Shown: one piece after another, positions 2,700 through 33,654 of the stretch
How positions within the stretch are numbered: position 1 is the first letter of the stretch
Layout: each line of letters opens with the position of its first letter
DNA from: Gammaproteobacteria bacterium
Lineage (GTDB): Bacteria; Pseudomonadota; Gammaproteobacteria; Burkholderiales; Burkholderiaceae_C
Length of the DNA stretch: 64,000 nt
Assembly: GCA_018820395.1 (NCBI GenBank)
Contig: JAHJOG010000032.1
Location: 15,276 to 79,275 of the forward strand
Direction: 5' to 3'
Made by a program: the position numbers and the translations under genes
The notes under the pieces: generated by a model
What the model saw: the letters and a program-made list of their open reading frames with translations, nothing else
Told to the model about the DNA's origin: nothing
The model's database searches: none

Positions 2700-3384
2700 T
2701 TGGCAGCGAATCGAGCGCGAGTACCGCCTCGGCACGTTGACCATTCAGGAGATCGCAGCTAACAACGGCGTCGCATACTCGGGGGTGCGACGGAAGGCAA
2801 AACTCGAGGGCTGGACGAGGGACCTCGCACATACTGTCATGATTGCGACAAAGCGCGCGCTGATCGAAGACGCCAAGAGCCGAGCCGAGCAACTCGGCGC
2901 GGATGTTGGCGCTGAGCTTGGCGGTAAATCGGCGCACGCCATGGAGGTCGCACTGAAGATGCAGGTCGCCGAAAACGTGGTGACAGTTCGCAGGCATCTC
3001 GAGAAGGCGGCCGCTAGCCAGACACTGGTCGACCTGATGAAGCACGAGCTCTTCATTCAGACCGCTGACCTCGATGCGCACATCAAGCTGGCAGAACTCC
3101 TCGACGACTCTGGCCCAGACGAACGCGGCAGCTGGAAGCATGACAAGCTGAACGAGATTTACCGAAGGGCAATCTCACTATCGAATCGCGCCGATACGTT
3201 GAAGAAACTGGTGGAGACCGAGTCGAAGATCAAAGACACCCAGCGTCAGGCACTGCGCCTCGACGCGGAGGCGGGGAACGAACGACCGCCTATCGAAACT
3301 GTGATCGACAATGTAAAGCGCAAGCTTGAGCTAATGCGGGTTTCGGGGCCGGCGTTCACGGGTAACACGATCACTAGTGAATGA
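2662..3384 (+). CDS. HTH-containing, phage terminase small-subunit-like / DNA-binding protein
   Basis: ATG at 2662 (alternative ATG at 2677). 'GIDWQRIEREYRLGTLTIQEIAANNGVAYSGVRRKAKLEGWTRD' is an HTH pattern seen in phage small terminase-like proteins. The C-terminal half is coiled-coil-like. Confidence 0.5.
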   Translation: MKDLKMARRTGIDWQRIEREYRLGTLTIQEIAANNGVAYSGVRRKAKLEGWTRDLAHTVMIATKRALIEDAKSRAEQLGADVGAELGGKSAHAMEVALKMQVAENVVTVRRHLEKAAASQTLVDLMKHELFIQTADLDAHIKLAELLDDSGPDERGSWKHDKLNEIYRRAISLSNRADTLKKLVETESKIKDTQRQALRLDAEAGNERPPIETVIDNVKRKLELMRVSGPAFTGNTITSE

Positions 3385-3706: not shown

Positions 3707-3952
3707 CGTGTGTCGTAAGCCGTGAGGTGCAGGTAGTATGCGAGGCTCTTAGGTCGGCGCCAAGACGCGTCGGTTACGGGGTCCTCTTTACAGATGATTG
3801 AGAATCGCCCAACGGGCAATCCGTCACGGGCTGGCGAGTTGCGCTCCTCGCCAGTAAGTTCCTGATCTCGATGTGGGATTCCCCCGCCCGCCAACGCTGA
3901 AACGGGGAAGGCGCCGAAGGACTATTACTCCGCCGGCCCGGTCGACGAGCAA

Positions 3953-4485
3953 CTACGCCAACACCCTCGGCACATCCGCCCACCGCCTGCTGTATCTGGC
4001 GTCTTAAGCGACTGCTTCATGCGCCAGCCACGCCGACCGTCCGACTGCCCTCTGCTCGCGAGCGCTACCGCACCGCGCCCAAAGCGATCGTTGAGCCGAT
4101 CCACGGTAGCCATCAGCGAGCCGCGGTCAGTCGCCTCGTCGTCGTGCGCAAGCTCGCCCCGCTGCACCGAGCCCGCTTGCAGGTCGAGCAGCATCACACC
4201 AGCTCTCAAGTAGTTGAAACCCGGCTTGAAGGCCGCCTTCACAGCCGCCACCGGCGCCTGCGCGATTAGCGCCGTGACGGCAGTCGGTCGCCGCAGCGGC
4301 ACCGTGATCTAGCGCGAGTATTGCTTGTCCTGCCGCTGGAACGGACTCGTTTGGATGAAGGCCAGCACCTGCGCCGTGTGGCTCCCCTGCGCCCGCAGCT
4401 TGTCCGCCGCACGAATTGCGAACTGGCTGACGGCCTCGACAAGCTCCTTAGCTATGTCACTGGTAGCCCGAAGCTGCGAGTGCCA
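3953..4485 (-). pseudogene. umuC: umuC (Y-family DNA polymerase V subunit) remnant: 5'-truncated, with an internal stop and a frameshift
   Basis: The reverse-strand translation reads '...IAKELVEAVSQFAIRAADKLRAQGSHTAQVLAFIQTSPFQRQDKQYSR*ITVPLRRPTAVTALIAQAPVAAVKAAFKPGFNYLRAGVMLLDLQ...LMATVDRLNDRFGRGAVALASRG...WRMKQSLKTP', collinear with the C-terminal ~180 aa of UmuC. There is an in-frame TAG at ~4308-4310. The expected C-terminus 'RYSRRWADVPRVLA*' is present in another frame (stop at 3953-3955). A TGA at 4486-4488 closes the frame upstream, and the polymerase core is absent. Confidence 0.8.
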
Positions 4486-4742
4486 TCAAGCTTCGAAACT
4501 TGGCTTTCCGGTCCTCGATTGAGATCGTTAGCCGACGCTCACCGGCGGCAAAAAGCCCGCGAGCAGCCAAGTATTCCCTCGGAACGGCACCTACAAGGGC
4601 CGCCGGCTCAAAAGTTCTGAACTACCCTACACACATTCGTTCACAACTGGCCACAGCGATGACTCCTGGGCCCGATCCATCAATGGAATTAGCCGCGCCA
4701 ACAAGGCGGAAAACTGCGAAACGTAACTCACAGGAGGGCTTC

Positions 4743-5114
4743 ATGACTCTGCAGACCGAAGGCACTGAACAGTTGGAGCAATCGCTGATCGACATCGCTG
4801 TCGAGAGCTGGCGCTTCTCGCGTCTGTTCGGCAAGGTGGTCAGCAAGCTCGACGCGGGCGAGTCAGGCCGCTACATCAACCAGCTTCGCTACTTCCAGAA
4901 GAAGGTCGAGGAGAACCTGGACTCGAACGGCCTGAAGCTGGTCAACGCCGAGGGGCAGCCCTATGACGCGGGGATGGCGGCATCCGCCTTGAACCTGGGC
5001 GACTTCGGCCCTGATGACGTGCTGCTCGTCGATCAGATGCTGGAGCCGATCATCATGGGGCCGAATGGTCTGCGCAAACAAGGCACTGTAATGCTCAGGA
5101 AGGTGGAAGCATGA
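4743..5114 (+). CDS. GrpE-like nucleotide-exchange-factor protein (short, beta-domain only)
   Basis: AGGAGG at 4732-4737, ATG at 4743, 123 aa. 'GLKLVNAEGQPYDAGMAASALNLGD...VLLVDQMLEPIIMGPNGLRKQGTVMLRK' resembles the GrpE C-terminal beta-domain. Its stop overlaps the Hsp70 start (ATGA at 5111-5114). Confidence 0.6.
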   Translation: MTLQTEGTEQLEQSLIDIAVESWRFSRLFGKVVSKLDAGESGRYINQLRYFQKKVEENLDSNGLKLVNAEGQPYDAGMAASALNLGDFGPDDVLLVDQMLEPIIMGPNGLRKQGTVMLRKVEA

Positions 5115-7603
5115 AATACGTCGGCATCGACCTCGGCACGACCAATAGCGCCATCTGCTCGTTCGACGGGGAGAGGATTCACCTCTACAAGAGTCCAGAA
5201 CAGCACGACGTCACTCCATCCGCGATCTTCATCGACCGGCGCGGAAACAAGTATGTCGGCTCGCGCGCCTACAACAATGCAGCGAAGAACCCCGACAACG
5301 CTGCGGTGCTATTCAAGCGGCTCATGGGCACGAGCACGCCCGTGAAGCTGCCTGCGGTCAACCTCATGATGACGCCGGAGGACTGTTCCGCCGAAGTCTT
5401 GCGCTCGCTCTTCGGCTACTTGCCGGAGGAAATTCGCGGCGATGGCGATACCGGCACGGTCATCACGGTTCCGGCCGCATTCAACCAGATGCAGAAGGAC
5501 TCGACGATGGCCGCCGCCGAAGCGGCTGGCCTCGGACGTGTCGCGTTAATGCAAGAGCCAGTGGCCGCCGTGATGAGCGTCATGCGCCAGCGCAAGAACG
5601 ATGGCGTCTTCGTTGTCTATGACCTGGGCGGCGGCACGCTCGACATCGCCATCGCCGAAAGCATCGCGGGCCGGGTGAACCTGCTCGCCCACGGCGGCAT
5701 TGCCATGTGCGGCGGACGTGACTTCGACCGCATCCTGTTCGACAACATCGTCAAGCCGTGGCTGATGGAGAACTTCGATCTGCCGGACGACTTGGCCGCG
5801 AATCCGCAGTTCAAGTCGCTGCTGAGGATGGCAACGTGGGCGGCGGAGAAGGCCAAGATCGAGTTGTCGCAGAAGGAAGAAACAGTCGTCAGCCTTCCCG
5901 AAACCGAGTTGGGCGTCCGAGATCAGGCCGGTGAGGAGATCTACATCGACATAACCATTGATCGCAAACGCTACGACGAGCTGATCGCGCCCAAGGTGGA
6001 AGAGTCCATCCAGTCCGCCCGCGAGACACTCGAAAAGGCCGGGTTGAGCCCGCACGACGTAGAGCGCGTCGTGTTCGTGGGCGGCCCCACGCACTACAAG
6101 CCGCTGCGCGACAAGGTCGCCTTTGAGCTTGGCGTCGCGCCGTCCACCGACGTGAACCCGATGACGGCGGTTGCCGAGGGTGCGGCAGTGTTTGCCGAAT
6201 CCATCGACTGGGCATCGCAAAGCCGTGGCCGCAAGAGCGCCCGTGGTGCGATCAGCGCCGGTGGCGCGCTCGACCTTTCGTTCAACTACATCGCGCGCAC
6301 GCCGGAACCGAGAGCCAAGTTCGTCGCCAAACTCGGCGGGCGCGCGCCTGCTGGCATCGAGTTCCAGATCGACAGTCTGGACACCGGTTGGTCATCGGGC
6401 CGCGTTGCGCTGAAGGATGGCGCAAGCGTCGAACTCAGCCTGACCAAACCCGGCGACAACACCTTCAAGGTGTTCGTGTTCGACTCGAATGGCGCGCCCG
6501 TGGGTTTGCACGAGGACAAGATTGTCATCGCGCGCACCGCCGCCAGCATCGACGCGATTCCCGCGTCTCACTCCATCGGCGTCGAAGCCCGCGACAAGGT
6601 TGGCGGGCGCTTGGTGCTGGACCACCTCATTCGCGAAGGCGACCAATTGCCCAAGAAGGGCAAGAAGTCCTTCAAAGCGGGCGAGTCGCTCAGGGCCGGA
6701 AGCGCCGGGTCGATCAAGTTCAAGCTGTGGGAAGGCGAAATCTCCGACCCCATCAACGACAACCGCTTCATCGGCATGTTCGAGATCAAGGGCACGGACT
6801 TCGACGAAGGCGTCATCGCTGCAGGCGCGGAGATGGTCTGCGAGTTCGAAGTACTCGACTCCGGCAACATCCAATTGGAAGTTTCGGTCCCGTCGATCAG
6901 CGGTTCATTCAAGAGCGGGCGCAACTACTACTCCAGCCAGGAAGGCAAGATCGACTACTCCAATCAGGCCAAGAATATTCAGGAGCAATCGGAACACACG
7001 CTGGAGCGTCTCGAAGAGATAGCATCCAAAGTGGATGACCCCCGTCTGGAACACGCCCGCGAGAAACTGGAGCAGGCCAGCGCTATTGAGTCGGGCGAGG
7101 CCGACCCGGAAACGGCGAAGCAGGCAATGGACAACGTGCAGGAAGCCAAGCGCCTGATGGCGCTGACACGCAAGGAGCACCTGAAGGACATTCGTCAGCT
7201 TGAGCTGGACAGAGCAGTCGATTTCTTCGAAAACACTGTGCGCCAGCACGCCCGCCCCACGGAGGCGTCGTCGTTCGACAACTTGGTCAAGACAGCTCAG
7301 CGCGCGCTCGAAAACAACAGCAGCGACTTCGAGTCGCACTTGGACGATCTGCGCGGCCGCAACTTCATGATCTTGTGGCGCCAGGACTGGTTCGTGATCG
7401 ATCACTTCAAACGCCTGGCTCAAGCGAGCTACCTTTTCTCTGACGCCAGAGAACATGCACAGCTAGTGGCGTTCGGAACCGAAGCCATCAAGGCCAACGA
7501 CATCGACAAGTTGCGCGCAGTGGTTGGCCAACTCATCTCGATTCAGGTGGGCTCTGCGGGTGACGACGACATGATGGCCGGTTCCAATATCGTTCGGAGT
7601 TGA
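5111..7603 (+). CDS. Hsp70-family ATPase, atypical 830-aa paralogue
   Basis: 'MKYVGIDLGTTNSAI' (phosphate 1), 'VYDLGGGTLDIAIAE' (phosphate 2) and 'VVFVGGPTHYKPLRDKV' (adenosine motif). An extra ~100-aa beta-rich insert lies between the NBD and the SBD-beta. The SBD-beta-like region reads 'SHSIGVEARDK...IKFKLWEGE...NRFIGMFEIKG...VCEFEVLDSGNIQLEV'. Long helical C-terminal tail. Confidence 0.9.
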   Translation: MKYVGIDLGTTNSAICSFDGERIHLYKSPEQHDVTPSAIFIDRRGNKYVGSRAYNNAAKNPDNAAVLFKRLMGTSTPVKLPAVNLMMTPEDCSAEVLRSLFGYLPEEIRGDGDTGTVITVPAAFNQMQKDSTMAAAEAAGLGRVALMQEPVAAVMSVMRQRKNDGVFVVYDLGGGTLDIAIAESIAGRVNLLAHGGIAMCGGRDFDRILFDNIVKPWLMENFDLPDDLAANPQFKSLLRMATWAAEKAKIELSQKEETVVSLPETELGVRDQAGEEIYIDITIDRKRYDELIAPKVEESIQSARETLEKAGLSPHDVERVVFVGGPTHYKPLRDKVAFELGVAPSTDVNPMTAVAEGAAVFAESIDWASQSRGRKSARGAISAGGALDLSFNYIARTPEPRAKFVAKLGGRAPAGIEFQIDSLDTGWSSGRVALKDGASVELSLTKPGDNTFKVFVFDSNGAPVGLHEDKIVIARTAASIDAIPASHSIGVEARDKVGGRLVLDHLIREGDQLPKKGKKSFKAGESLRAGSAGSIKFKLWEGEISDPINDNRFIGMFEIKGTDFDEGVIAAGAEMVCEFEVLDSGNIQLEVSVPSISGSFKSGRNYYSSQEGKIDYSNQAKNIQEQSEHTLERLEEIASKVDDPRLEHAREKLEQASAIESGEADPETAKQAMDNVQEAKRLMALTRKEHLKDIRQLELDRAVDFFENTVRQHARPTEASSFDNLVKTAQRALENNSSDFESHLDDLRGRNFMILWRQDWFVIDHFKRLAQASYLFSDAREHAQLVAFGTEAIKANDIDKLRAVVGQLISIQVGSAGDDDMMAGSNIVRS

Positions 7604-7607
7604 TCTC

Positions 7608-9047
7608 ATGGCCCTCGACGCATGGCTCCCCATTGGATTCAAGCTGCCAGACGGCGCGAAGGTTCGCGCCGCGCTGTACGAGGGCGTGGATTGGCAGATC
7701 TACGAAACAATGGGCGGTGGTCGTGCGCTGATTGCACAAGACACGCTCGCGCAGCATTGGCTGGATGCGGGTCTGATTGAAGATGGAACGCTAAACACCG
7801 CACAGTTCGGCGGCCACCAGTTCCGGTCGATCTCATGCGGGCCGAGCCAGACGCTTTGCCCTGTCAGCGAGGGGAAGTCTCCCGACAATAAATCCGAAGC
7901 GCTTTCCTTCGCCTTGGCGTTGAAGGCAACGCGCGACATCGACGCGGATTCCCCACTGCAAGATGCCCTATATGTCGAGAAGATCACCCGCTTGCTGCCC
8001 ACCTACAGCATCAGCTCCAGAACTGGCGACGACGTTGTGCTCGGCTACTGGCTGACGGGCGGCACGAACATCCCGGCCTCATCCTTTCGTCGGCTGCGTC
8101 AGTCCATGAGCTGGCTCGGTGGGGGCCATTTGAAGGATGTTGTGCAAGCGGCGGGCTTCGAAGTCGCAGAAGTCCTCCCGTTGGCGCGCAAGCCTGCGTC
8201 TCCTGCCGAAACAACGGAAGCTGCCCCCGCTGAGAAAGTGGAGCAAACCAAACGCGCCGAGGCGGAACCCAGCAAAGTTTTCGAACTCGCCGGGCGCCCT
8301 GAACTGGCGGCCTTCTTCAACGAGCACATCATCGACATCATCCTGCACCGCGACCGCTACAAGGCGCTCGGCATCGAGTTCCCGTCGGCGGTGATCCTGC
8401 ACGGCCCTCCGGGTTGCGGCAAAACCTTCGCGGTCGACCGGCTGTTGGACTTCCTCGGCTGGCCAAGCTTCCAGATCGACGCCTCCAGCGTCGCCAGCCC
8501 CTACATCCACGAGACCAGTAAGAAGGTTGCGCAGGTGTTCGACAAGGCGATGGAAAGCGCGCCGTCCGTCCTCGTGATCGACGAGATGGAAGCCTTCCTT
8601 GCCGACCGCGAGGTGGGTTCGGGTCATCACCGCGTCGAGGAAGTGGCCGAGTTCCTGCGCCGCATCCCCGAGGCGGTGAAGAGCGACGTGCTGATCATCG
8701 CCATGACCAACCGGATCGACATGATCGACCCGGCCATCCAGCGCCGAGGGCGTTTCGATCACGTCATCAAGGTGGATTTCGCCAGCGAGCTTGAAGTGCA
8801 GTCCCTGCTGGACAAGCTGCTCTCCTCCTTGCCGAAGGAATCGGACGTGGATGCCAAGGCGCTCGCGAAGGAGCTGGCTGGCAGGCCCTTGTCCGATGTT
8901 TCTTTTGTGGTGCGAGAAGGCGCGAGGCTGGCGGCGCGATCCGGCAAGGAAAAGCTGGATCAGTCCAGCCTGTTGTCCGCCCTACGTGCATCACCGGTGC
9001 GGGAGCGCGAGGGTGGCGAAACCAAACGGCGCATCGGATTCGTTTAA
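7608..9047 (+). CDS. Classic-clade AAA+ ATPase with an unknown ~230-aa N-terminal domain
   Basis: Walker A 'ILHGPPGCGKTF', Walker B 'VLVIDEMEAF' and SRH-like 'IIAMTNRIDMIDPAIQRRGRFDHVIKV'. Starts 4 nt after the Hsp70 stop. Confidence 0.85.
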   Translation: MALDAWLPIGFKLPDGAKVRAALYEGVDWQIYETMGGGRALIAQDTLAQHWLDAGLIEDGTLNTAQFGGHQFRSISCGPSQTLCPVSEGKSPDNKSEALSFALALKATRDIDADSPLQDALYVEKITRLLPTYSISSRTGDDVVLGYWLTGGTNIPASSFRRLRQSMSWLGGGHLKDVVQAAGFEVAEVLPLARKPASPAETTEAAPAEKVEQTKRAEAEPSKVFELAGRPELAAFFNEHIIDIILHRDRYKALGIEFPSAVILHGPPGCGKTFAVDRLLDFLGWPSFQIDASSVASPYIHETSKKVAQVFDKAMESAPSVLVIDEMEAFLADREVGSGHHRVEEVAEFLRRIPEAVKSDVLIIAMTNRIDMIDPAIQRRGRFDHVIKVDFASELEVQSLLDKLLSSLPKESDVDAKALAKELAGRPLSDVSFVVREGARLAARSGKEKLDQSSLLSALRASPVREREGGETKRRIGFV

Positions 9048-9053
9048 GGAGAG

Positions 9054-10634
9054 GTGGTAGTGACGGGCGGAGAACAAGAACAGAAGAAGGGAGAAGGCAA
9101 AGGCTTCGCAGGCCTTTCCTCGCTCGTGTCCGACGTGGACACGACGCCGCCACCTGCCGCCAAAGTAGAACCTGCTGCCGCTGCGCCGGGTGCCGGACGT
9201 CCGGCCCCGCAGCCCGGACAGCCGCAGCCGAGCCAACGCCAAACGTATCAAGAGCCTGCGCAGCCGCCGTCCTCAGGCTCGTCCGGCGGCAAGTGGATGT
9301 TGGGCTTTGCCGCCGTCATCGGTGTGCTCTGGCTGATCGGCCAGTCGGACAAGAACACGACTTCTCCAGCTCAAGCCTACTCGCCTCCCGCGCAGACTGC
9401 GACGCCAAGTTACTCGCCGCCGCCCGCTGAACCGCTAGCGCCATCTCGCCCCCAGGAATCGATGCCACCTGTTGGGCAAAACCAGGTGCTTTCAACGGCG
9501 CAGATTCGCTATTGCTTGGCCGAAGAAATTCGTATGGATGGCGCGAAGTCGGCCATCAACAACTACATCGAGTCCGACGTGGATCGCTTCAACGCGATGG
9601 TAGCCGACTACAACAGTCGCTGCGGGAACTTCCGCTATCGCAGTGGCATGCTGGAAAATGCGCGGCGTGAGATCGAGCCGTATCGTAGCCAGTTTCAGTC
9701 CGAAGGCCGGAGCAGGTTCGTTCGTAGTCCATCCACTGGCTCGCTGTCGGCCCCTGCGCCGTCGCGGCCTGCTCCGGATGCGACCGTGCAAGCGATCCAA
9801 CGCAAACTCAACGAACTCGGTTACGAAGCTGGCACTGCCGATGGTTTGATGGGGCGAGGTACACGTTCAGCAATATTGGCCTTTCAGCGTGATAACGGCT
9901 TGGTGGCTGATGGCAATGCCAGGGCCGCACTGCTTCAACTCCTGACAGTGACCCGTCAAGTTGAGAGGCAAGGAGCGCAAGTACCTGCACCTTCGGTCAC
10001 GGTTGCGCCGCCTACGTACACACCTCCCGCCCGTGCTTCGTCGCGTCAGGAATCCACGAATCCGACCAGCGGCGGCATTCCCCAACACGCTCATCTGAAC
10101 TACCTCGGCAACGGATGGGAGTGCAATCGCGGTTACTACAGATCGGGCAATGAGTGCCAGCCTGTCCAGATGCCACGGTATGCAACGCTCGATGTCTACG
10201 GCTCGGGCTGGGTATGCCAGAGTGGGTATTTCAAGTCGGGCAATGAGTGCCAGCCTGTCCAAATGCCCCAGAACGCAACACTCGATGTCTATGGATCGGG
10301 CTGGGTATGTCAGCGCGGTTACTACAGATCCGCAAACGAGTGTTTACCCGTCCAGATGCCACGGTACGCAACGCTCGACGTCTATGGATCGGGCTGGGTT
10401 TGCCAACGTGGCTACTACAAGTCCGCCAACGAGTGTCTGCCCGTCCAAATGCCACCGAACGCAACGCTAGATGTCTATGGATCAGGCTGGGTTTGCCAGC
10501 GCGGTTTCTACAAATCGGTCAATCAGTGCCTACCCGTTCAGATACCCCAGAACGCAACATTAGACGTCTACGGGGCGGGTTGGGCGTGCATTCAAGGATA
10601 TGCCCGGGTCGGGGATAGCTGTGCAGCCAATTGA
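9054..10634 (+). CDS. Single-pass membrane protein with a peptidoglycan-binding domain and six C-terminal Cys-containing repeats
   Basis: GTG at 9054 or 9060, after AAGGAGAGG. Pro-rich N-terminus, TM segment 'WMLGFAAVIGVLWLIG', and PG_binding_1-like 'VQAIQRKLNELGYEAGTADGLMGRGTRSAILAFQRDNGLVADGNA'. Then six copies of a ~31-aa 'ATLDVYGSGWVCQRGYYRSANECLPVQMPxN' repeat. Confidence 0.8.
   Translation: MVVTGGEQEQKKGEGKGFAGLSSLVSDVDTTPPPAAKVEPAAAAPGAGRPAPQPGQPQPSQRQTYQEPAQPPSSGSSGGKWMLGFAAVIGVLWLIGQSDKNTTSPAQAYSPPAQTATPSYSPPPAEPLAPSRPQESMPPVGQNQVLSTAQIRYCLAEEIRMDGAKSAINNYIESDVDRFNAMVADYNSRCGNFRYRSGMLENARREIEPYRSQFQSEGRSRFVRSPSTGSLSAPAPSRPAPDATVQAIQRKLNELGYEAGTADGLMGRGTRSAILAFQRDNGLVADGNARAALLQLLTVTRQVERQGAQVPAPSVTVAPPTYTPPARASSRQESTNPTSGGIPQHAHLNYLGNGWECNRGYYRSGNECQPVQMPRYATLDVYGSGWVCQSGYFKSGNECQPVQMPQNATLDVYGSGWVCQRGYYRSANECLPVQMPRYATLDVYGSGWVCQRGYYKSANECLPVQMPPNATLDVYGSGWVCQRGFYKSVNQCLPVQIPQNATLDVYGAGWACIQGYARVGDSCAAN
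10089..10631 (+). repeat. Coding tandem repeat, 93-nt period, six copies (first degenerate, last truncated)
   Basis: Repeat units start at 10089, 10182, 10275, 10368, 10461 and 10554. Each encodes GW-C-x2-GY-x5-6-C. Copies differ mostly at synonymous positions (acg/aca, tac/tat, ggc/gga, tgc/tgt, cag/caa, ctc/cta/tta). Confidence 0.9.
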
Positions 10635-10658
10635 GCTGTTCGAACTCTGGAGATTGAA

Positions 10659-11057
10659 ATGGGATTGTTAGATTTTTTCGGAAAGAAGAAGAAAGAAGAC
10701 CAGGAAGCTGCCGAACTGATGAAGGCACTCATTCAGTATCAGGTGGAATCCAGAAAGGATGGCGTCGATACCGACGACATCCCAAAAGGCTACGGTCCAT
10801 ACGGGCTTTGCAAAACGAATCCCGTTCCGACTCGCGGCATTCCCGGCTCCAACGAATACCTTTCTCGGCTTCGCACGAAAGATGGGCGCTCCATTGAAAG
10901 TTCGCGCATTGGTTCCACGAGTGCGGAAGACGTTACCAGTGGAGCAATCGACATGTACTGCATCACCAGCGGAGACGTGAGTTTTGGCACGGTTTACTTG
11001 TGTCCCTATCACAAGAGGAACTCAGGGAAGGCTCCTGAAGGTTTTCGCTTGCTATAA
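10659..11057 (+). CDS. Hypothetical 132-aa protein
   Basis: GGAG lies 7 nt upstream of the ATG. Locally lower GC. 'GYGPYGLCKTNPVPTRGIPGSNEYLSRL...IDMYCITSGD...YLCPYHKRNS'. No domain recognised. Confidence 0.5.
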   Translation: MGLLDFFGKKKKEDQEAAELMKALIQYQVESRKDGVDTDDIPKGYGPYGLCKTNPVPTRGIPGSNEYLSRLRTKDGRSIESSRIGSTSAEDVTSGAIDMYCITSGDVSFGTVYLCPYHKRNSGKAPEGFRLL

Positions 11058-11103
11058 GGCGTGATCATTTGAATCGTATGGCAAGGGCTTGAGGCGCAGC
11101 GAA

Positions 11104-13107
11104 ATGACCATCGCATATTGCTTTTCATGTGGCGCACAAAAGGCCTCGTCAGTAGTGTCGTGCGGGTCGTGCAGAAAATCGCCCGCAACGGAAGCCGACC
11201 TGGTGAAGTCGCTGATCTTGTCAGATGACTTTTCGACACAGGGACAGCTCGCCCACTTCGCCAACGAGGTTCGTTCAAATCACTGCCTCACCGCGCCGGA
11301 CAGTTTGGTAGCAAAGGCGCGGGAGGCAGCGCGCGCCCCCAAGTATCAACGAGTATTGACGGCCACTCAGCCGCCTAGGGCCGCGCCACAGAGCGCAGCA
11401 TCGCCAGTCGAGCATTCCCGAGTTGTCTCTGCATCACCACCGATTCTGCGCATACCGGCTCCCCGCCTCACCACAACCGTGCTGCATCAGTCGCCGTTCT
11501 CGGTCTTGGGCGTGACGACCCGCGACAACCGCAAGCGCATCGTCGAGTTAGCGGAGGAGAAGTCGTTGGAATTGGATCACGATGTTTGCCAGAAAGCACG
11601 TTCCGACCTGACCAACCCGCGCACCCGCTTGGGCGTGGAGATCGCGTGGCTTCCCGGAGTCTCGCCGCGCAAGGCGAGCCAGTTGGTAGAGAACTTGGTT
11701 AGCGACCCGATGGCGATACGCAAAGAGTCTGGCCTGCCCGCGCTCGCGCACCTGAATCTGCTGGCGTCGGCGTTCGAAGCCGTGGATGGAACGCACGATG
11801 CAGACGACTTGACTGGGTTCATTATGGAGGCCGCCTACCTCGCCGAAGAGCTAACGCCGGAGGAGGTGCTGCGCGACATCAACGAGGATCGCGCCGTATC
11901 CGGCTTTCCGGAAGTGCGTGCGCTCGATCAGATCGAATCTGAGCTGACCGAGCGCAAGCGGTTCTACCGTGGTGCCATCAAGGATGCGCTCGACAGGCTG
12001 CCGCCGATGACGCTCATCCAAGTAATGACCGAAACCGTGGATGGCGTGACATCCGGCGGCGAGAATCATGCGCCGGGACTGATCGATGACCTCGTCGACA
12101 GCTATGAGGTAGAGACTCAGAGCATCCTGCAAAAGGAGGCCGAGAACGTCTACAAGCTCATCAAGGCGGCAAGAGACCATACGGTCTCCGGCGAAACTGC
12201 CATCAAGCCCTATGTGGATAAACTTGATGCGGTGGCGCGCAACTGGGACAAGATCGCCCAGCCGATTCAACTAAGTACGAAAGCACGCGGTATAGACCAC
12301 GAAGCGAGCCGTAACTTAGCCTACGAGATTCGTAGCCTTGCCATCGACCTGTTCAACAAGCACGACATGCTTGTCCAGTCGCAGCGCTTGACCAAACTGA
12401 TTCAGGAGATCTTTTCTGAAGTGCCGGAAATTGCGGCTCGCGCCGAGCAGGACGCGGACGCACTCGCGGACATTCTCCAACAACGCAAGCGGGCCGCTTC
12501 GCGCGAAGTCGAATGGGCGCGCGAAATCAGTTACCACGCCGAGATTGGGGTGATGTTCAAGGATCCCTTGAGCATTTCCCCAGATGGCGTTTCGTGGAAG
12601 GGCCAGAACTTTCCGCTCGACTCGATCACGCGCGTTCGCTGGGGAGGCACTAGTCATTCTATCAATGGCATCCCTACGGGGACGACCTACACGATTGCGT
12701 TTGGCAACCGGAATTCTGAAGCGCTTGTGGAACTAAAGAAGAAGGACGTGTACAACACGTTCACTGAGAAGCTCTGGCGCGCAGTCTGCGTTCGCTTGCT
12801 CACTGAAATGCTCGAAGCCTTGAGGGATGGGCGCGACCTGCACTTCGGCGATGCACTGCTGCACGACGATGGCATCACGCTCGTGCGGCGCAAGTTCCTC
12901 GGTTCAAACGAAAATGTGCGCTGCTCGTGGGGCCAAGTCCATGTTTGGAGCGCCGATGGTTCATTCTGCATCGGAGACAGGGAGGACAAGAAGGTCAACG
13001 CCGCTATTTCCTATATTCACGGGGCGAACACCCATGTTCTCGAACAAGCCATTCGCATGGGCTTCAAGAAGCCGGGAATGCGCCGTTTGAGCGAAATACT
13101 AAATTGA
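11104..13107 (+). CDS. Zn-ribbon protein with a degenerate J-domain-like segment (candidate co-chaperone)
   Basis: ATG at 11104 (the ORF is open from TTG 11089). N-terminal 'CFSCGAQKASSVVSCGSC' is a Zn ribbon. 'SPFSVLGVTTRDNRKRIVELAEEKSLELDHDVCQKARSDLTNPRTRL' aligns to J-domain helices I-III, with DHD where HPD is expected. The remaining ~450 aa are unrecognised. Confidence 0.75.
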   Translation: MTIAYCFSCGAQKASSVVSCGSCRKSPATEADLVKSLILSDDFSTQGQLAHFANEVRSNHCLTAPDSLVAKAREAARAPKYQRVLTATQPPRAAPQSAASPVEHSRVVSASPPILRIPAPRLTTTVLHQSPFSVLGVTTRDNRKRIVELAEEKSLELDHDVCQKARSDLTNPRTRLGVEIAWLPGVSPRKASQLVENLVSDPMAIRKESGLPALAHLNLLASAFEAVDGTHDADDLTGFIMEAAYLAEELTPEEVLRDINEDRAVSGFPEVRALDQIESELTERKRFYRGAIKDALDRLPPMTLIQVMTETVDGVTSGGENHAPGLIDDLVDSYEVETQSILQKEAENVYKLIKAARDHTVSGETAIKPYVDKLDAVARNWDKIAQPIQLSTKARGIDHEASRNLAYEIRSLAIDLFNKHDMLVQSQRLTKLIQEIFSEVPEIAARAEQDADALADILQQRKRAASREVEWAREISYHAEIGVMFKDPLSISPDGVSWKGQNFPLDSITRVRWGGTSHSINGIPTGTTYTIAFGNRNSEALVELKKKDVYNTFTEKLWRAVCVRLLTEMLEALRDGRDLHFGDALLHDDGITLVRRKFLGSNENVRCSWGQVHVWSADGSFCIGDREDKKVNAAISYIHGANTHVLEQAIRMGFKKPGMRRLSEILN

Positions 13108-13491: not shown

Positions 13492-15768
13492 GTGACTGAT
13501 AACGTTGAGAGCCCATCAAGTCTTCAGACCCTGTCGTCGGAAGTCTTGGCTGGCGAAGCGGCAAGCCCCAATGCGATTGGCTGGTATCGTGCAACTGAGG
13601 ACTTCTTGCAGTTCGTCCAGGGCAACATTCCGGGCAGGTTGGACGATACCGAATTCCTTGACCGGCTATTCAATGACGAATCCATCTCGTCAACGGGTCA
13701 AGGACGCATCAAGCTGCATCCGGCGCTCAGTGATGCCGCATTCCGGGCCTGGTTTGCCGAGCAGGTCCGCAATCCACTTCCGGCGGAGATGGACGAAGCG
13801 ACGGTCGCGTTGCGAGAGTTTCATGACGAGCTTGCTTCCAGGCTGCGAGCGTTGTGTGGAAAAACCCCATGGCTCAAGCTCCGGCGAGCGCTTTGCGCGT
13901 TGTATCCGTCCAAGTTCACGTCCATAGTGAACAACGAAAGCGCCCTCTTCGACCTCTACAGCAAGATCACGGGTGCGCATGCTAGCCATTTCGTTCCCGC
14001 CAGCATTGCGATTCGCGGCGCCGTCGATGCCGTGCTGCCTAGCTATCACGCGAAGGACCTCTACGAGGTCGCTCGCCGGATCAACCTGCCATGGATGCTG
14101 CTGCAACACGCGATCAAAGAGACAGAGAGGTCAGCGCAGCCAGTCGCTGCCGAGGCGCTCCCGCAGCAGACAACCAGCACCCAGGTCTTGGTGCCAATTC
14201 AAGCCACATTGCGCCGAAAGGGGCTGACCGGGATGGGCGGAGGATTCGCGGCGCTCCTGGACATCGTCGATGACCTCAAAGATGGATTGAGCCGGATTGA
14301 GCTTGAAGCGCGAGTCCGCGAGGCCAATCCCCGGCTGGGGGACCTCGCAGTCGGTACTACCATCAACGTCATTGCTCGCGAGTTCGATCTTTGCGCACGC
14401 GAGGGCGACGTTTACCGACTAAGCGGCAGGGGCTCGGCGCTGCGCGAGTCCCGAGATCCTGACGTCCTTGCAGACCACCTACTTACCAAGGTGCTGGGCT
14501 TCGACAATGTTCTGAAGCTGCTTGAAGAAGGAGCGCAGGACAGCCAAGCATTGATCAGCTTTCTGAAAGAGGTCAACCCAGGCTGGACTTCCAATTTTGC
14601 GCCAACTTCCCAACTCGGATGGCTGCGAGAGCTTGGCTTGGTGAACTACGAGAGCCGCCAGTATTCGCTCACCGACCGAGGTCATAGGTGGGCCGAGATG
14701 GTGACGTGGGTTCCGGCAAAGCTGCCACCGGTAGCCGGCACTGGCCCCATAGAGGACTTTCCTGAGCAGACTCCTGAAGCACTGAGCTTGCCAAGCTTTG
14801 CAGATGTGGCAGATCGACTGATGCGCGCGATCGAAGGCCAGTACGCCTTCGACCCGAAGTTGATCGTCCAGCTTCACACCGGTCTTTGGTTCCACCCGAC
14901 GCGGCACTTCGTCGTCTTGACCGGCATCTCTGGATCCGGCAAAACCCAGCTCGCTTTGCAATATGCACGGGCGCTCACGCACTCCGAAGGGTTGGACTCA
15001 CCCTTCGTCGAAGTGATTCCGGTGCAGCCAGGTTGGCACGACCCGAGCCCGATGCTCGGGTACGTCAATCCATTGCAGGATGCCTCGTACCGGAGCGCCC
15101 CGTTCCTAGAACTCGTACTCCGCGCCGCCGCCGACCCTGGTCGCGCCTATGTTGCGATCCTCGATGAGATGAACCTCTCGCATCCGGAGCAATACTTCGC
15201 ACCGGTGTTATCTGCGATGGAATCCCGCGTTGCCTTGAAACTGCATCAGATGGATTCATCAGTGCCTGTTCCGCCAATGGTCCCCTATCCTTCCAATCTG
15301 GCGATCATCGGAACGTTGAACATGGACGAGACCACCCACGGCCTCTCCGACAAAGTCCTGGATCGCGCTTTCACATTGGAGTTCTGGAATATCGATGTCG
15401 ACGCCCACCCTGCGTGGGCAAACGTGCCGATGCCGCAAGAGCTGAAGATCAAGGCCCGAGCAGTGCTGAACGGGCTTGAGGTGGCACTAAGCCCGTGCCG
15501 TCTGCATTTCGGGATGCGGACTGTGGACGACGTGCTGGGCTATTTGAGTTTTCAGGCGCACCCGTCCGATGCTGCGTCGAGCGCGCTGGATGACGTGGTC
15601 TACGCGAAGGTATTGCCCAAGCTCCGTGGGGAGGCCACACCCCGGTTTCAGGAAGCACTCAAAGCAGTGCTCGACGTACTTGAAACCCACGGGCTTGCCA
15701 GGTGCACCGAGAAGGTGAAGGCCATGCGAGAGGACCTGAAGTCCGGATCGGCGCGATTCTGGCGCTAG
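13492..15768 (+). CDS. McrB-like AAA_5 (GTPase-type) ATPase with an N-terminal region containing wHTH-like repeats
   Basis: GTG start preceded by AGAGGAA. 'VVLTGISGSGKTQLALQYA', 'YVAILDEMNLSHPEQYFAPVLSAME' and 'LAIIGTLNMDETTHGLSDKVLDRAF' are the McrB/AAA_5 signature. Confidence 0.85.
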   Translation: MTDNVESPSSLQTLSSEVLAGEAASPNAIGWYRATEDFLQFVQGNIPGRLDDTEFLDRLFNDESISSTGQGRIKLHPALSDAAFRAWFAEQVRNPLPAEMDEATVALREFHDELASRLRALCGKTPWLKLRRALCALYPSKFTSIVNNESALFDLYSKITGAHASHFVPASIAIRGAVDAVLPSYHAKDLYEVARRINLPWMLLQHAIKETERSAQPVAAEALPQQTTSTQVLVPIQATLRRKGLTGMGGGFAALLDIVDDLKDGLSRIELEARVREANPRLGDLAVGTTINVIAREFDLCAREGDVYRLSGRGSALRESRDPDVLADHLLTKVLGFDNVLKLLEEGAQDSQALISFLKEVNPGWTSNFAPTSQLGWLRELGLVNYESRQYSLTDRGHRWAEMVTWVPAKLPPVAGTGPIEDFPEQTPEALSLPSFADVADRLMRAIEGQYAFDPKLIVQLHTGLWFHPTRHFVVLTGISGSGKTQLALQYARALTHSEGLDSPFVEVIPVQPGWHDPSPMLGYVNPLQDASYRSAPFLELVLRAAADPGRAYVAILDEMNLSHPEQYFAPVLSAMESRVALKLHQMDSSVPVPPMVPYPSNLAIIGTLNMDETTHGLSDKVLDRAFTLEFWNIDVDAHPAWANVPMPQELKIKARAVLNGLEVALSPCRLHFGMRTVDDVLGYLSFQAHPSDAASSALDDVVYAKVLPKLRGEATPRFQEALKAVLDVLETHGLARCTEKVKAMREDLKSGSARFWR

Positions 15769-15773
15769 GCCCA

Positions 15774-17330: not shown

Positions 17331-17355
17331 TCGACAAGCCAAATAGGAGTCGCCG

Positions 17356-20918: not shown

Positions 20919-20919
20919 G

Positions 20920-33570: not shown

Positions 33571-33654
33571 CTGCGTTTGCTCCTTTGATGCCCTTTCGCT
33601 AGCAATGCGAAGGGCCAATGAACGGTCGTACTTCCTGTGTTGGCGGCGGCGCGG

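What the first reader, a model, noticed from the sequence alone, without database searches (positions are those of the whole stretch)
4743..13107. Dedicated non-housekeeping Hsp70 machine (GrpE-like + Hsp70 + AAA+ + envelope PG-binding repeat protein + J-like Zn-ribbon protein) carried as island cargo
Seen: six same-strand genes. There is an ATGA overlap between the GrpE-like gene and Hsp70 (5111-5114), a 4-nt gap from Hsp70 to the AAA+ gene, and 6-12 nt to the next gene. The Hsp70 keeps intact ATPase motifs (GIDLGTTNSA, DLGGGTLDIAI, FVGGPTHYKPL) but is 830 aa, with an extra beta-rich insert before an SBD-beta-like region and a long helical tail. The partner proteins look like a minimal GrpE beta-domain protein and a J-like protein whose HPD position reads DHD. 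A classic-clade AAA+ ATPase and a single-pass membrane protein with a PG-binding domain are interposed. Established: housekeeping dnaK-grpE-dnaJ genes have different sizes and layout and are not flanked by restriction genes. Inference: the cluster sits between a umuC scar and a McrBC-like system inside a defence island. It may be a conflict (anti-phage or abortive-infection) or envelope-surveillance system that uses an Hsp70 cycle as its switch. I cannot match it to a named defence system.
Basis: partly seen in the sequence, partly recalled or inferred. Interest (0 to 1): 0.8.

Follow-up and report, generated by a model that had tools for sequence, protein, structure and literature searches.

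The report
Mobile membrane-tethered Hsp70 plus AAA+ operon
A conserved, horizontally mobile operon encodes a specialised Hsp70 chaperone with its own GrpE-like exchange factor, an AAA+ unfoldase, an inner-membrane protein that reaches into the periplasm, and a large helical adaptor. It sits among anti-phage genes in many bacteria, so it is a good but untested candidate for a new chaperone-driven immune or envelope-surveillance system.

Summary
The six same-strand genes at 4743-13107 are real and intact. Five of them form a discrete cassette: GrpE-like (123 aa), Hsp70 (830 aa), AAA+ (479 aa), a TM/periplasmic protein, and a J-like helical protein. This cassette keeps its order in about 80 species genomes from several phyla, in 13 plasmids, in P. 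aeruginosa ICEs and in one E. coli island. The ATGA overlap between the first two genes occurs in 74 of 76 loci.

The adjacent McrBC never travels with the cassette (0 of 84 loci), so a CoCoNuT/CnuD reading is rejected. The Hsp70 ATPase residues are invariant in 101 family members. GrpE-likeness has weak to moderate support. J-likeness is inconclusive, and the HPD motif is absent.

In deep relatives (Sinorhizobium and Aminobacter plasmids) the J-like protein and the membrane protein are fused into one polypeptide and there is no AAA+. This ties the cytoplasmic Hsp70 machine to a periplasmic module.

Flanks differ between genomes and are rich in defence genes: Mokosh, Druantia-like, RADAR, type I/IIG RM, Gabija-like, and BrxR regulators. 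PADLOC does not recognise the cassette, and I found no description in the literature.

Best reading: an undescribed envelope-coupled Hsp70 conflict system. The function is inferred, not shown.

The parts
4743..5114 (+). g1: 123-aa GrpE-like protein, the candidate nucleotide-exchange factor. Translationally coupled to the Hsp70.
   Evidence: SD + ATG at 4743 and ATGA overlap. The overlap is conserved in 74/76 loci. AF2 pLDDT 78.6: two helices plus a small beta domain. Foldseek: GrpE structures take 9 of the top 14 PDB hits, E 0.17-2.1. hhalign vs GrpE: P 0.003, g1 52-101 aligned to GrpE 124-175. No Pfam, NCBIfam or PDB sequence hit.
5111..6205 (+). g2 Hsp70 nucleotide-binding domain (aa 1-365)
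   Evidence: PF00012 E 4e-60. DnaK-numbered D8, K70, E171, D194, T199 and D201 are invariant in 101 family members. R167 is Ala in 86/101.
6206..6538 (+). g2 family-specific beta-rich insert (aa ~366-476) between the NBD and the linker
   Evidence: The alignment with E. coli DnaK places DnaK 385 at g2 384 and DnaK 389 at g2 477. The 'DTGWTSGR' and 'KxGxNxF' motifs are conserved.
6539..7603 (+). g2 altered linker (AASID), SBD-beta-like domain, long helical lid/tail, and a conserved C-terminal [AS]-N-I-[ILV]-[RK]-[GA] motif
   Evidence: The profile of the C-terminal family hits the mitochondrial Hsp70 SBD (E 0.0019) and the DnaK SBD (E 0.12). Pocket residues F426/V436/I438 are kept as F/I/F. The C-terminal family has 799 representatives at 50% clustering. 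Tail motif seen.
7608..8312 (+). g3 N-terminal domain (aa 1-235), unknown fold
   Evidence: No Pfam hit at E<=1. Conserved with the AAA module in orthologues.
8313..9047 (+). g3 classic-clade AAA+ ATPase module
   Evidence: PF00004 E 9e-30. Best PDB matches are NVL/p97/Cdc48, E ~1e-50. Walker A GPPGCGKT, Walker B VIDE, SRH RRGRFD, and pore-loop-like SPYIHE. The IetA similarity is domain-level only: NCBIfam 90.6 bits against a cutoff of 510.
9102..9140 (+). g4 conserved cytoplasmic N-terminal motif GFAGLSSLVSDVD
   Evidence: At least 80% conserved in 52 orthologues.
9294..9341 (+). g4 single transmembrane segment (aa 81-96)
   Evidence: Hydrophobic segment at aa ~78-100 in most orthologues.
9342..10634 (+). 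g4 periplasmic part: a conserved two-Cys helical domain (QIRYCLAE...YNSRC..FRY), PG_binding_1 (aa 243-295), and variable Cys-rich ~32-aa repeats
   Evidence: PF01471 E 7e-14. Core domain conserved. PG-binding present in 25/50 loci and Cys count ranges from 2 to 16. DNA homology to the P. aeruginosa cassette breaks at 9892.
10659..11057 (+). g5: 132-aa accessory protein of unknown fold (short form of a 194-216-aa family)
   Evidence: Homologues (30-65% id) lie just downstream of g6 in 22+ loci. Present in 23/30 loci whose g6 has the N-terminal Zn-ribbon domain and in 0/20 without it. No family hit.
11104..11367 (+). g6 optional N-terminal Zn-ribbon + helical domain
   Evidence: CxxC...CxxC. AF2 pLDDT ~86. 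Present in about half of orthologues.
11479..11658 (+). g6 J-domain-like four-helix segment without HPD
   Evidence: Strongly conserved 'NPFxxLGVTTRDDRRRIVELAEEKSLELD..CQKARSDLTNPRTRL'. hhalign vs J-domains: P 0.002, colinear. Top-scoring of 43 control windows. No Pfam DnaJ hit.
11659..12549 (+). g6 conserved all-helical scaffold
   Evidence: AF2 pLDDT 75-94. Only generic helical-repeat fold matches. Homologous to the N-terminal half of the fused proteins in Sinorhizobium and Aminobacter.
12550..13107 (+). g6 variable C-terminal beta-rich module, possibly two PH-like units. Replaced by a two-TM module in other lineages.
   Evidence: Alternative C-termini in alignment A4. Low-confidence AF2: 7 strands + helix, twice. 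Cassette homology ends at 13094.

Best explanation
What it is. The cassette is a self-contained, horizontally mobile operon for a membrane-coupled specialised Hsp70 system.

Shown:
- An ATPase-competent Hsp70 (g2) is always co-encoded, and translationally coupled, with a small protein (g1).
- It is also co-encoded with a Cdc48-like single-ring AAA+ ATPase (g3), a bitopic inner-membrane protein (g4) and a large helical protein (g6).
- g4 has a conserved cytoplasmic N-terminal peptide and a periplasmic domain, often with PG-binding and variable Cys-rich repeats.
- g6 has swappable N- and C-terminal modules.
- In deep relatives g6 and g4 are a single polypeptide, so they act together.

Inferred mechanism:
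1. g4/g6 form an envelope-spanning sensor-adaptor. The periplasmic part reports on peptidoglycan or envelope state, for example damage or entry by a phage or other invading element.
2. The cytoplasmic g6 scaffold recruits the dedicated Hsp70 through its J-like segment by a non-canonical, HPD-independent contact.
3. g1 acts as the private GrpE-type exchange factor that resets the Hsp70.
4. The AAA+ threads or unfolds the client that the Hsp70 hands over. The client could be a system component or an invader protein.
5. The variable g6 C-terminal modules (beta-rich/PH-like or two-TM) and g5 are candidate output or specificity modules.

Most likely biological role: anti-phage or anti-MGE conflict, meaning defence or abortive infection. 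An upstream HTH_17 repressor-type regulator, and in some genomes a BrxR, probably control expression.
For: Discrete cassette:
- DNA homology to P. aeruginosa ICE copies spans exactly 4674-13094.
- The order g1-g2-g3-g4-g6 holds in about 80 species genomes at 58-95% identity. These cover Proteobacteria, Planctomycetes, Nitrospira, Acidobacteria, Leptospira and Actinomycetes.
- It also holds in a Vibrio plasmid at 45-54% identity and in E. coli HeN100.
- Tight coupling of the genes.

Components:
- Active-site conservation in the Hsp70.
- GrpE-like fold and profile signals for g1.
- Fusion proteins: Aminobacter 841 aa and Sinorhizobium 636 aa match g6 132-505 (E 5e-20 and 1e-13) and g4 81-286 (E 2e-19 and 2e-17). 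Each is followed by a g1-like gene and an Hsp70 gene.
- Arms-race-like modularity: optional Zn-ribbon, alternative C-termini, inserted Hsp70 SBD-like segment, variable Cys repeats, and optional g5 tied to the Zn-ribbon domain.

Defence context in independent genomes:
- Window: McrBC-like, DruE, MkoA/MkoB, IIG RM/Drm-like.
- E. coli: RADAR rdrB and a DptF remnant.
- Ralstonia: BrxR + type I RM.
- A metagenome contig: MmeI + GmrSD_N.
- Sinorhizobium: UvrD + ATP-dependent endonuclease + a large MTase.
- BrxR-like regulators 0.3-1.4 kb upstream of g1 in the five hit loci where g1 was mapped, and also present in three further loci. BrxR family members co-localise with defence systems (PMC9122601).
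- PADLOC hits (WYL, MADS mad2, RM-I, retron/DRT RTs, Cas1, SoFic) and integrases/transposases among 150 flanking proteins.
Against: - No experiment supports any function.
- No recognisable toxin, nuclease or other classical effector domain is present.
- All recognisable parts are chaperone-like, which fits proteostasis equally well.
- The J-domain assignment is weak and HPD is absent, so Hsp70 recruitment by g6 is inferred from gene linkage only.
- The GrpE assignment rests on sub-significant scores.
- Defence-gene enrichment in the flanks was not compared with a genome-wide background. MGE cargo regions are rich in defence genes anyway.
- PG-binding is absent from half of the orthologues, so peptidoglycan sensing cannot be the universal input.
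- The AAA+ is absent from the deep fused branch.
Confidence: 0.5

Rival explanations
1. A transmissible proteostasis or envelope-stress tolerance module. It would be analogous in spirit to MGE-borne protein-quality-control loci. An extra Hsp70/NEF/AAA+ bichaperone anchored at the inner membrane would extract, refold or degrade damaged envelope or membrane proteins and raise host fitness under heat or envelope stress.
For: All identifiable domains are chaperone or unfoldase parts with intact catalytic residues. There is a membrane anchor and periplasmic PG-binding. No toxin or nuclease effector was found. The cassette is carried by ICEs and plasmids like other fitness cargo. A recent review treats the roles of bacterial DnaK paralogues as open and probably proteostatic (PMC13580251).
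Against: The cassette is not linked to sHsp, ClpK/ClpG, DegP or FtsH genes in any locus examined. It shows sensor-like domain shuffling and hypervariable periplasmic repeats. It recurs next to BrxR regulators and defence systems. The J interface is non-canonical and the linker is altered.
Confidence: 0.22
2. A function that serves the mobile element itself. Examples are support of conjugative transfer or establishment, entry exclusion, addiction, or anti-defence. The membrane/PG-binding protein would act at the cell envelope during DNA transfer.
For: Found in ICEclc/PAGI-like ICE contexts in P. aeruginosa. 6 of 13 plasmids carrying it are conjugative. Integrases, Tn3, TraI_2 and DUF932 occur in the flanks.
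Against: The flanks are not conserved beyond the cassette. It also occurs on non-mobilisable plasmids and in islands without transfer genes. There is no consistent linkage to T4SS or relaxase genes.
Confidence: 0.12
3. An accessory of the adjacent McrBC-like restriction system. The Hsp70 would be a CoCoNuT type III-B/C 'CnuD' RNA-binding partner of CnuB/CnuC.
For: A McrB-like/McrC-like pair lies 385 nt downstream. The CoCoNuT study describes separate Hsp70-like CnuD genes next to NxD McrBC systems (PMC11090510).
Against: McrB, McrC and NYN homologues are absent from all 84 related loci tested. Cassette homology ends at 13094, before the McrBC. CnuD proteins are described as having degenerate Walker A-like motifs, whereas this Hsp70's catalytic residues are invariant.
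Confidence: 0.02
4. A chance juxtaposition, or a decaying paralogue of the housekeeping dnaK-grpE-dnaJ genes with no joint function.
For: Only the NBD reaches Pfam significance. g1, g5 and g6 have no family assignment.
Against: All ORFs are intact. Order and coupling are conserved across phyla, and active sites are under strong purifying selection. There are thousands of family members: 4956 g1 clusters and 799 Hsp70 C-terminal representatives.
Confidence: 0.01

Closest known systems
Canonical DnaK-DnaJ-GrpE, and the specialised bacterial Hsp70 systems HscA/HscB and HscC/DjlC
   Same: An Hsp70 with intact ATPase residues and an SBD-beta-like domain. It is co-encoded with a small GrpE-like partner and a partner bearing a J-like segment. 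Like HscA/HscC, it is a dedicated paralogue with private co-factors (established knowledge of those systems).
   Different: An insert of about 110 aa lies between the NBD and the linker. The linker reads AASID instead of VLLLD. DnaK R167 is replaced by Ala. The helical tail is long and ends in its own C-terminal motif. The partner lacks HPD and fails the DnaJ HMM. The GrpE-like protein is 123 aa, lacks the long N-terminal helix and fails the GrpE HMM. There is obligatory linkage to an AAA+ and a membrane protein. The cassette is mobile and sporadic.
Membrane-tethered Hsp70 motors and adaptors: the mitochondrial PAM motor (mtHsp70, Pam18/Pam16, Tim44, Mge1) and E. coli DjlA-DnaK
   Same: The architecture is similar: an Hsp70 cycle localised to the cytoplasmic (matrix) face of a membrane by a tethered J or J-like protein, together with a GrpE-type exchange factor. 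Pam16 is an HPD-less J-like protein (my knowledge of these systems). The g6-g4 fusion proteins give exactly such a tether.
   Different: No detectable sequence homology exists beyond the Hsp70. No translocon component is present. An AAA+ unfoldase is added. This is an analogy only.
GTPase-centric conflict systems with HSP70 + GrpE + DnaJ-FNIII (Kaur, Burroughs, Iyer & Aravind 2020, PMC7159879)
   Same: A computational precedent for Hsp70, GrpE and a J-domain protein being recruited into predicted biological-conflict operons.
   Different: Those systems are built around GAP1-N2/DO-GTPases (some with tubulin) and occur mainly in actinobacteria and firmicutes. This cassette has no GTPase or tubulin. 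It has an AAA+ and a TM/periplasmic protein, and it is mainly proteobacterial.
CoCoNuT type III-B/C CnuD (Hsp70-like) with CnuB/CnuC McrBC (PMC11090510)
   Same: An Hsp70-like gene near a McrBC-like pair inside a defence island that also holds a Druantia type III-like gene.
   Different: There is no co-occurrence with McrBC in 84 loci, and the catalytic motifs are intact rather than degenerate.
IetAS (Gao et al. 2020), whose AAA+ IetA is the best PADLOC match to g3
   Same: Classic-clade AAA+ module; PADLOC IetA E 6e-27 over the ATPase core.
   Different: The NCBIfam IteA score is 90.6 against a cutoff of 510. The N-domain is different and there is no IetS-type protease in the cassette.
Zorya (ZorAB), as an example of envelope-anchored, PG-binding phage sensors
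   Same: The concept only: an inner-membrane complex with a periplasmic PG-binding domain coupled to cytoplasmic effectors in a defence system (my knowledge).
   Different: No MotAB-like channel and no homology. The cytoplasmic machinery here is Hsp70/AAA+.

Membership tests
Hsp70 (PF00012) | Actin-like NBD with phosphate-1/2 and adenosine motifs and catalytic K70/E171/D194/T199 | tested here: met
   PF00012 E 4e-60 over aa 4-363. The residues are invariant in 101 family members.
Hsp70 (PF00012) | Hydrophobic interdomain linker (DVLLLD) directly after the NBD, followed by SBD-beta and a helical lid | tested here: inconclusive
   The linker position reads AASID and is separated from the NBD by an insert of about 92-110 aa. 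SBD-beta similarity is marginal by profile (E 0.0019 to Ssc1, 0.12 to DnaK), but the alignment is colinear and pocket residues are kept.
GrpE (PF01025) | Match to the GrpE family profile | tested here: not met
   No Pfam or NCBIfam hit. No PDB sequence or profile hit.
GrpE (PF01025) | GrpE fold: helices of the four-helix bundle followed by a small C-terminal beta domain that contacts the Hsp70 NBD | tested here: inconclusive
   The AF2 model has two helices plus a beta domain. GrpE entries take 9 of the top 14 Foldseek PDB hits, but at E 0.17-2.1 and TM 0.35-0.55. hhalign P 0.003 on the matching segment. The long N-terminal dimerisation helix is absent.
GrpE (PF01025) | Nucleotide-exchange activity on the partner Hsp70 | not testable with these tools
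   Only gene coupling is available: ATGA overlap in 74/76 loci.
J-domain (PF00226) | Match to the DnaJ profile | tested here: not met
   No Pfam hit even at E<=1 for the isolated segment. No PDB profile hit.
J-domain (PF00226) | Invariant HPD tripeptide between helices II and III | tested here: not met
   The aligned position reads L-D-H in the window. Across 29 orthologues only one Asp is nearly invariant. The partner Hsp70 has Ala at the DnaK R167 position.
J-domain (PF00226) | Four-helix J fold | tested here: inconclusive
   AF2 shows four short helices at aa 131-181 with pLDDT 80-89. hhalign is colinear at P 0.002, and the segment is the best of 43 control windows. Whole-protein Foldseek gave only generic helical matches.
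AAA+ classic clade (PF00004) | Walker A/B, sensor-1, and second region of homology with arginine fingers | tested here: met
   PF00004 E 9e-30, full-length model match. Nearest structures are NVL/p97/Cdc48. The motifs are visible in the sequence.
PG_binding_1 (PF01471) | Profile match above the gathering score | tested here: met
   52.2 bits against a cutoff of 23, aa 243-295. Present in only 25/50 orthologues.
CoCoNuT type III-B/C (CnuD with CnuB/CnuC) | Hsp70-like gene conserved in an operon with NxD-type McrB and McrC homologues | tested here: not met
   0 of 84 related loci carry McrB or McrC homologues. Cassette homology ends before the McrBC.
CoCoNuT type III-B/C (CnuD with CnuB/CnuC) | Degenerate Walker A-like motif in the Hsp70-like domain (as described in PMC11090510) | tested here: not met
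   Catalytic motifs are invariant; description read.
IetAS defence system | IetA equivalog score and a partner IetS protease | tested here: not met
   NCBIfam IteA 90.6 bits against a cutoff of 510. No protease domain in any cassette protein.
GTPase-centric HSP70/GrpE conflict systems (Kaur 2020) | Core GAP1-N2 or DO-type GTPase, with or without tubulin, in the operon | tested here: not met
   No GTPase or tubulin domain in the six proteins, or in the conserved neighbours.
Known anti-phage systems in PADLOC-DB v2 | Any cassette protein matching a system-specific model | tested here: not met
   Only generic AAA+ similarity for g3. No hits for g1, g2, g4, g5 or g6.

The most novel reading that the evidence does not exclude
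This would be the first immune (or invader-exclusion) system whose central switch and effector is an Hsp70 cycle. An envelope-spanning sensor (g4/g6, one protein in the ancestral form) would detect phage- or MGE-induced events at the cell wall or membrane. It would then license a private Hsp70/GrpE-like pair and a Cdc48-like AAA+ to unfold a specific client. That client could be an invader protein, or a latent membrane-active module of g6/g5 that aborts infection.
Probability: 0.35. Interest if true: 0.85.

Novelty: new variant of a known kind. Interest (0 to 1): 0.68.

Why it matters
Bacterial DnaK paralogues are numerous, and their roles are an acknowledged open question (PMC13580251). This family offers a tractable case for three reasons:
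- It is widespread: at least 172 hits among GTDB species genomes, thousands of metagenomic clusters, ICEs and plasmids.
- Its partners are fixed.
- A natural fusion links the cytoplasmic chaperone machine to a periplasmic module.

If it is a defence system, it would add a mechanistically new class, chaperone/unfoldase-driven immunity coupled to the envelope. It would also widen the link between Hsp70 machinery and immunity already hinted at by DnaJ-dependent bNACHT sensing and the CoCoNuT/GTPase-centric predictions. If it is instead a proteostasis module, it would be a new type of transmissible stress-tolerance cargo. Either way, five of its protein families currently lack any Pfam or NCBIfam assignment.

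Tried and rejected
1. CoCoNuT/CnuD link to the neighbouring McrBC. I followed this up from the literature and rejected it on co-occurrence and motif conservation.
2. Direct family assignment of g1, g5, g6, the g3 N-domain and the g4 core via Pfam, NCBIfam, PHROGs, PADLOC, and PDB sequence or profile searches. Nothing significant.
3. Whole-protein Foldseek of the g6 model against PDB and BFVD. Only generic helical-repeat matches. The model could not be cropped to test the J-like segment alone.
4. A 15-sequence alignment was too divergent for the locus search, so a 4-sequence alignment was used. The 80 loci returned therefore reach down only to about 58% identity. Deeper relatives came from the plasmid tblastn.
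5. Phage origin. There is no match in 50,697 phage records and only 6 IMG/VR contigs.
6. IetAS membership of the AAA+. Rejected on score and architecture.
7. Literature searches for an existing description. They found only other Hsp70-containing predictions: CoCoNuT, GTPase-centric systems and EACC1-protease-DnaK fusions.
8. The promoter/terminator consensus scan was uninformative in this 60% GC DNA.
9. The 204-aa mechanical ORF from TTG 4500 was rejected as the g1 start. The SD-preceded ATG at 4743 matches all orthologues.

Full report
**1. Observation**

The six + strand ORFs are present and intact:

| Gene | Coordinates | Length |
|---|---|---|
| g1 | 4743-5114 | 123 aa |
| g2 | 5111-7603 | 830 aa |
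| g3 | 7608-9047 | 479 aa |
| g4 | 9054-10634 | 526 aa |
| g5 | 10659-11057 | 132 aa |
| g6 | 11089/11104-13107 | 672/667 aa |

- g1 starts at an ATG preceded by AGGAGGG, and its stop overlaps the g2 start in ATGA.
- Pfam confirms an Hsp70 NBD (aa 4-363 only), a full AAA module and PG_binding_1. g1, g5 and g6 match nothing in Pfam, NCBIfam, PHROGs or PADLOC.
- The rest of the window is a large defence island. It holds a DruE-like 2112-aa helicase, MkoA (E 1.6e-233) with MkoB, a type IIG RM/DrmMI-like enzyme and a DrmD-like helicase.

**2. The cassette is a conserved, mobile unit**

- The Hsp70 has more than 120 clusters at 90% or higher identity in P. aeruginosa, Acidovorax, Thiobacillus, Bordetella, Roseateles and metagenomes.
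- In P. aeruginosa ICE contexts the layout is HTH_17, g1, Hsp70, AAA, PG-binding protein, g6. DNA homology to the window runs from 4674 to 9892 and from 11461 to 13094. It therefore ends at the cassette borders and breaks over the g4 repeats, g5 and the g6 N-terminus.
- The Hsp70 C-terminal 465 aa define their own family: 799 representatives at 50% clustering with E<=1e-3, and 444 with E<=1e-10.
- A pattern scan of one genome per GTDB species found 172 relatives, of which 80 loci were kept. tblastn of the window proteins shows g1-g2-g3-g4-g6 in essentially every locus with enough flank. A few loci have g6 before g4.
- McrB, McrC and NYN are absent from all 84 loci.
- The g1/g2 ATGA overlap occurs in 74 of 76 loci, and the g2-g3 gap is 2-5 nt.
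- Outside the cassette the flanks are not conserved. The exceptions are a g5-like gene just downstream of g6 in 22 loci and, in one subclade, further ICE genes.
- An HTH_17 gene lies 0-50 nt upstream of g1 in about 30 loci. It is missing from the window.
- The cassette is on 13 plasmids and in 1 of 5426 complete E. coli genomes. It is absent from phage records and found on only 6 IMG/VR contigs.

**3. Components**

*Hsp70 (g2).* In an alignment of 101 family members with E. coli DnaK:
- All catalytic and phosphate-binding residues are invariant.
- DnaK R167, which pairs with the J-domain HPD Asp, is Ala in 86 of 101.
- An insert separates the NBD from an altered linker (AASID in place of VLLLD).
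- SBD pocket residues are retained.

A profile of the C-terminal region hits the mitochondrial Hsp70 SBD (E 0.0019) and the DnaK SBD (E 0.12) colinearly. The extreme C-terminus carries a conserved [AS]-N-I-[ILV]-[RK]-[GA] motif.

*g1.*
- The family has 4956 clusters.
- The AF2 model (pLDDT 78.6) has two long helices and a small beta domain.
- GrpE structures from four organisms take 9 of the top 14 Foldseek PDB hits, but at E 0.17-2.1.
- hhalign against a three-sequence GrpE alignment gives P 0.003 for g1 52-101 against GrpE 124-175. That segment includes the 'G-x-P-[FY]-D-P' stretch.
- I regard the GrpE-like assignment as moderately likely, not proven.

*g3.* A single classic-clade AAA+ module, closest to NVL/p97/Cdc48. 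It follows an unassigned 235-aa N-domain. The IetA similarity is generic.

*g4.* A bitopic protein with:
- a conserved cytoplasmic N-terminal peptide GFAGLSSLVSDVD;
- one TM segment;
- a conserved two-Cys periplasmic domain;
- PG_binding_1 in 25 of 50 loci;
- lineage-specific Cys-rich repeats.

*g6.*
- An optional Zn-ribbon/helical N-domain, then a disordered linker.
- A very conserved segment, 'NPFxxLGVTTRDDRRRIVELAEEKSLELD..CQKARSDLTNPRTRL'.
- A helical scaffold of about 300 aa, modelled with high confidence.
- Alternative C-termini: beta-rich in the window, or a two-TM module.

Some homologues carry an inserted Hsp70 SBD-beta-like segment or a second Zn ribbon.

The J-like reading gets only weak support. 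hhalign gives P 0.002, colinear with J-domains, and the segment is the best of 43 control windows. There is no DnaJ HMM hit, and HPD is not conserved.

*g5.* It belongs to a family with an N-terminal MGF(L)S.LFGG motif. It co-occurs with the g6 Zn-ribbon domain in 23 of 30 loci, against 0 of 20 loci without that domain (Fisher 2.4e-8, not corrected for phylogeny).

**4. Key new finding: a natural fusion**

On Sinorhizobium and Aminobacter plasmids, Hsp70s with 24-27% identity in the C-terminal region (34% over the full-length Aminobacter protein) are preceded by a g1-like gene (E 1e-17 and 1e-12). That gene is in turn preceded by a 636- or 841-aa protein:
- its N-terminal half matches g6 132-505 (E 1e-13 and 5e-20);
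- its C-terminal half matches g4 81-286, including the TM segment and the periplasmic domain (E 2e-17 and 2e-19).

No AAA+ gene is present there. This fusion argues that g6 and g4 act as one envelope-spanning unit. It also suggests that the minimal core is the sensor-adaptor, the GrpE-like protein and the Hsp70, with the AAA+ as a later addition.

**5. Context**

Defence genes neighbour the cassette in independent genomes:

| Genome | Neighbours |
|---|---|
| E. coli HeN100 | RADAR rdrB and a DptF remnant, in a CP4-like island |
| Ralstonia | divergent BrxR, plus type I RM |
| Metagenome contig | MmeI and GmrSD_N |
| Sinorhizobium | UvrD + ATP-dependent endonuclease (Gabija-like) and a large MTase |
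| Aminobacter | AAA/helicase genes and a RES toxin |

- BrxR-like WYL regulators hit in 8 loci. They lie 0.3-1.4 kb upstream of g1 in the five of these where g1 was mapped. BrxR-family regulators are known to co-localise with defence systems (PMC9122601).
- Among 150 flanking proteins, PADLOC finds WYL, mad2, type I RM, retron/DRT reverse transcriptases, Cas1, PDC-M27C and SoFic. Pfam finds integrases, Tn3 transposases, DUF932 and TraI_2.
- I could not compute a background-corrected enrichment.

**6. Interpretation**

Shown:
- A discrete, widely transferred operon with an ATPase-competent, structurally derived Hsp70.
- A translationally coupled small partner, an AAA+, a membrane/periplasmic protein and a modular helical protein.
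- g6 and g4 are linked by a natural fusion.

Inferred:
- g1 acts as a private exchange factor.
- g6 recruits the Hsp70 non-canonically.
- The periplasmic part provides the input.
- The AAA+ and the variable g6/g5 modules provide the output.
- The biological role is conflict or defence.

My confidence in the anatomy is high. My confidence in the defence role is about one half. The main rival is an MGE-borne envelope or proteostasis module.

**7. Comparison and novelty**

- Precedents exist for Hsp70 parts in predicted conflict systems: CoCoNuT CnuD (PMC11090510), GTPase-centric HSP70/GrpE/DnaJ systems (PMC7159879) and EACC1-protease-DnaK fusions (PMC12642450).
- None shares this gene set, and each fails at least one membership test here.
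- I found no description of this cassette in the searchable literature, and PADLOC v2 does not model it. The literature corpus and the absence of a DefenseFinder run limit that statement.
- I classify it as a new variant of a known kind, namely specialised Hsp70 systems and chaperone-containing conflict modules.

Noticed in passing
window 28649-33618 (- strand): A Mokosh type I-like pair: MkoA (1169 aa, PADLOC E 1.6e-233) and MkoB (487 aa, E 2.9e-78).
   Followed up: partly
window 18819-27258 (- strand): A 2112-aa DruE-like helicase (PADLOC DruE E 1e-106) preceded by a 699-aa UvrD/NERD-type helicase. This looks like a Druantia type III-like module.
   Followed up: partly
window 35259-43118 (- strand): A 1657-aa type IIG restriction-methyltransferase/DrmMI-like protein (E 2e-242) next to a 961-aa DrmD/SNF2-like helicase (E 4e-93). 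The 546-aa ORF between this pair and Mokosh (33655-35295) has no PADLOC hit.
   Followed up: partly
window 13492-17892 (+ strand): A McrB-like protein (758 aa, PDC-M26A E 2e-42) and a McrC-like protein (DUF2357 + PDDEXK_7) whose ORFs overlap by 67 nt, followed by a NYN-domain protein. I did not check whether the GTPase has the NxD (CoCoNuT-type) motif.
   Followed up: partly
window 2-2100 and 3925-4302: Toprim + DUF3987 (P4-type primase) genes and a umuC C-terminal remnant lie upstream. The island is probably part of a P4-like or integrative element. ORFs at 2329-3384 have no family hit.
   Followed up: partly
window 50479-52770 (+ strand): A second AAA+ protein (763 aa) whose ATPase core also best matches PADLOC IetA (E 9e-33). 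Its partners were not examined.
   Followed up: no
proteins P0126-P0131 (homologues of g6): Some g6 homologues carry an inserted segment of about 110 aa between the Zn-ribbon domain and the J-like segment. It reads like an Hsp70 SBD-beta ('LGIQTVGSSFTAILDKGSNIPCSASKSFTT...') and has a precomputed PF00012 hit. Others carry an extra Zn ribbon at the same place.
   Followed up: partly
window 9102-9140 (g4) and 10659-10700 (g5): The N-termini of g4 (GFAGLSSLVSDVD) and of the g5 family (MGF/LLS.LFGG.KED) are both conserved short hydrophobic 'GF..L' peptides. They may be a shared docking or client motif for the Hsp70 SBD, g6 or the AAA+ N-domain.
   Followed up: no
window 7583-7600 (end of g2): The extreme C-terminus of the Hsp70 family carries a conserved [AS]-N-I-[ILV]-[RK]-[GA] motif. 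It is kept even in members with 26-30% identity and recalls the partner-docking EEVD tail of eukaryotic Hsp70s.
   Followed up: no
window 4303-4742: The HTH_17 regulator gene that precedes g1 in about 30 other loci is absent. Homology to other cassettes starts only at 4674. The 204-aa mechanical ORF from TTG 4500 is therefore probably not the real g1 start, and how this copy is regulated is unclear.
   Followed up: partly
L001 18164-21020 (P. aeruginosa ICE) and about 10 other loci: In one subclade, four to five further small genes follow the g5-like gene in conserved order: 162 aa, 350 aa with a faint T2SSM_b hit, 217 aa, and an RDD-domain protein. It is undecided whether they belong to the system or to the ICE backbone.
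   Followed up: no
L094 (E. coli HeN100, NZ_CP044443.1 4115537-4122320): Only 1 of 5426 complete E. coli genomes carries the cassette. It is a five-gene version with the minimal 228-aa g4 and is 91% identical in DNA to a Serratia grimesii copy. It is a convenient native source for experiments.
   Followed up: partly
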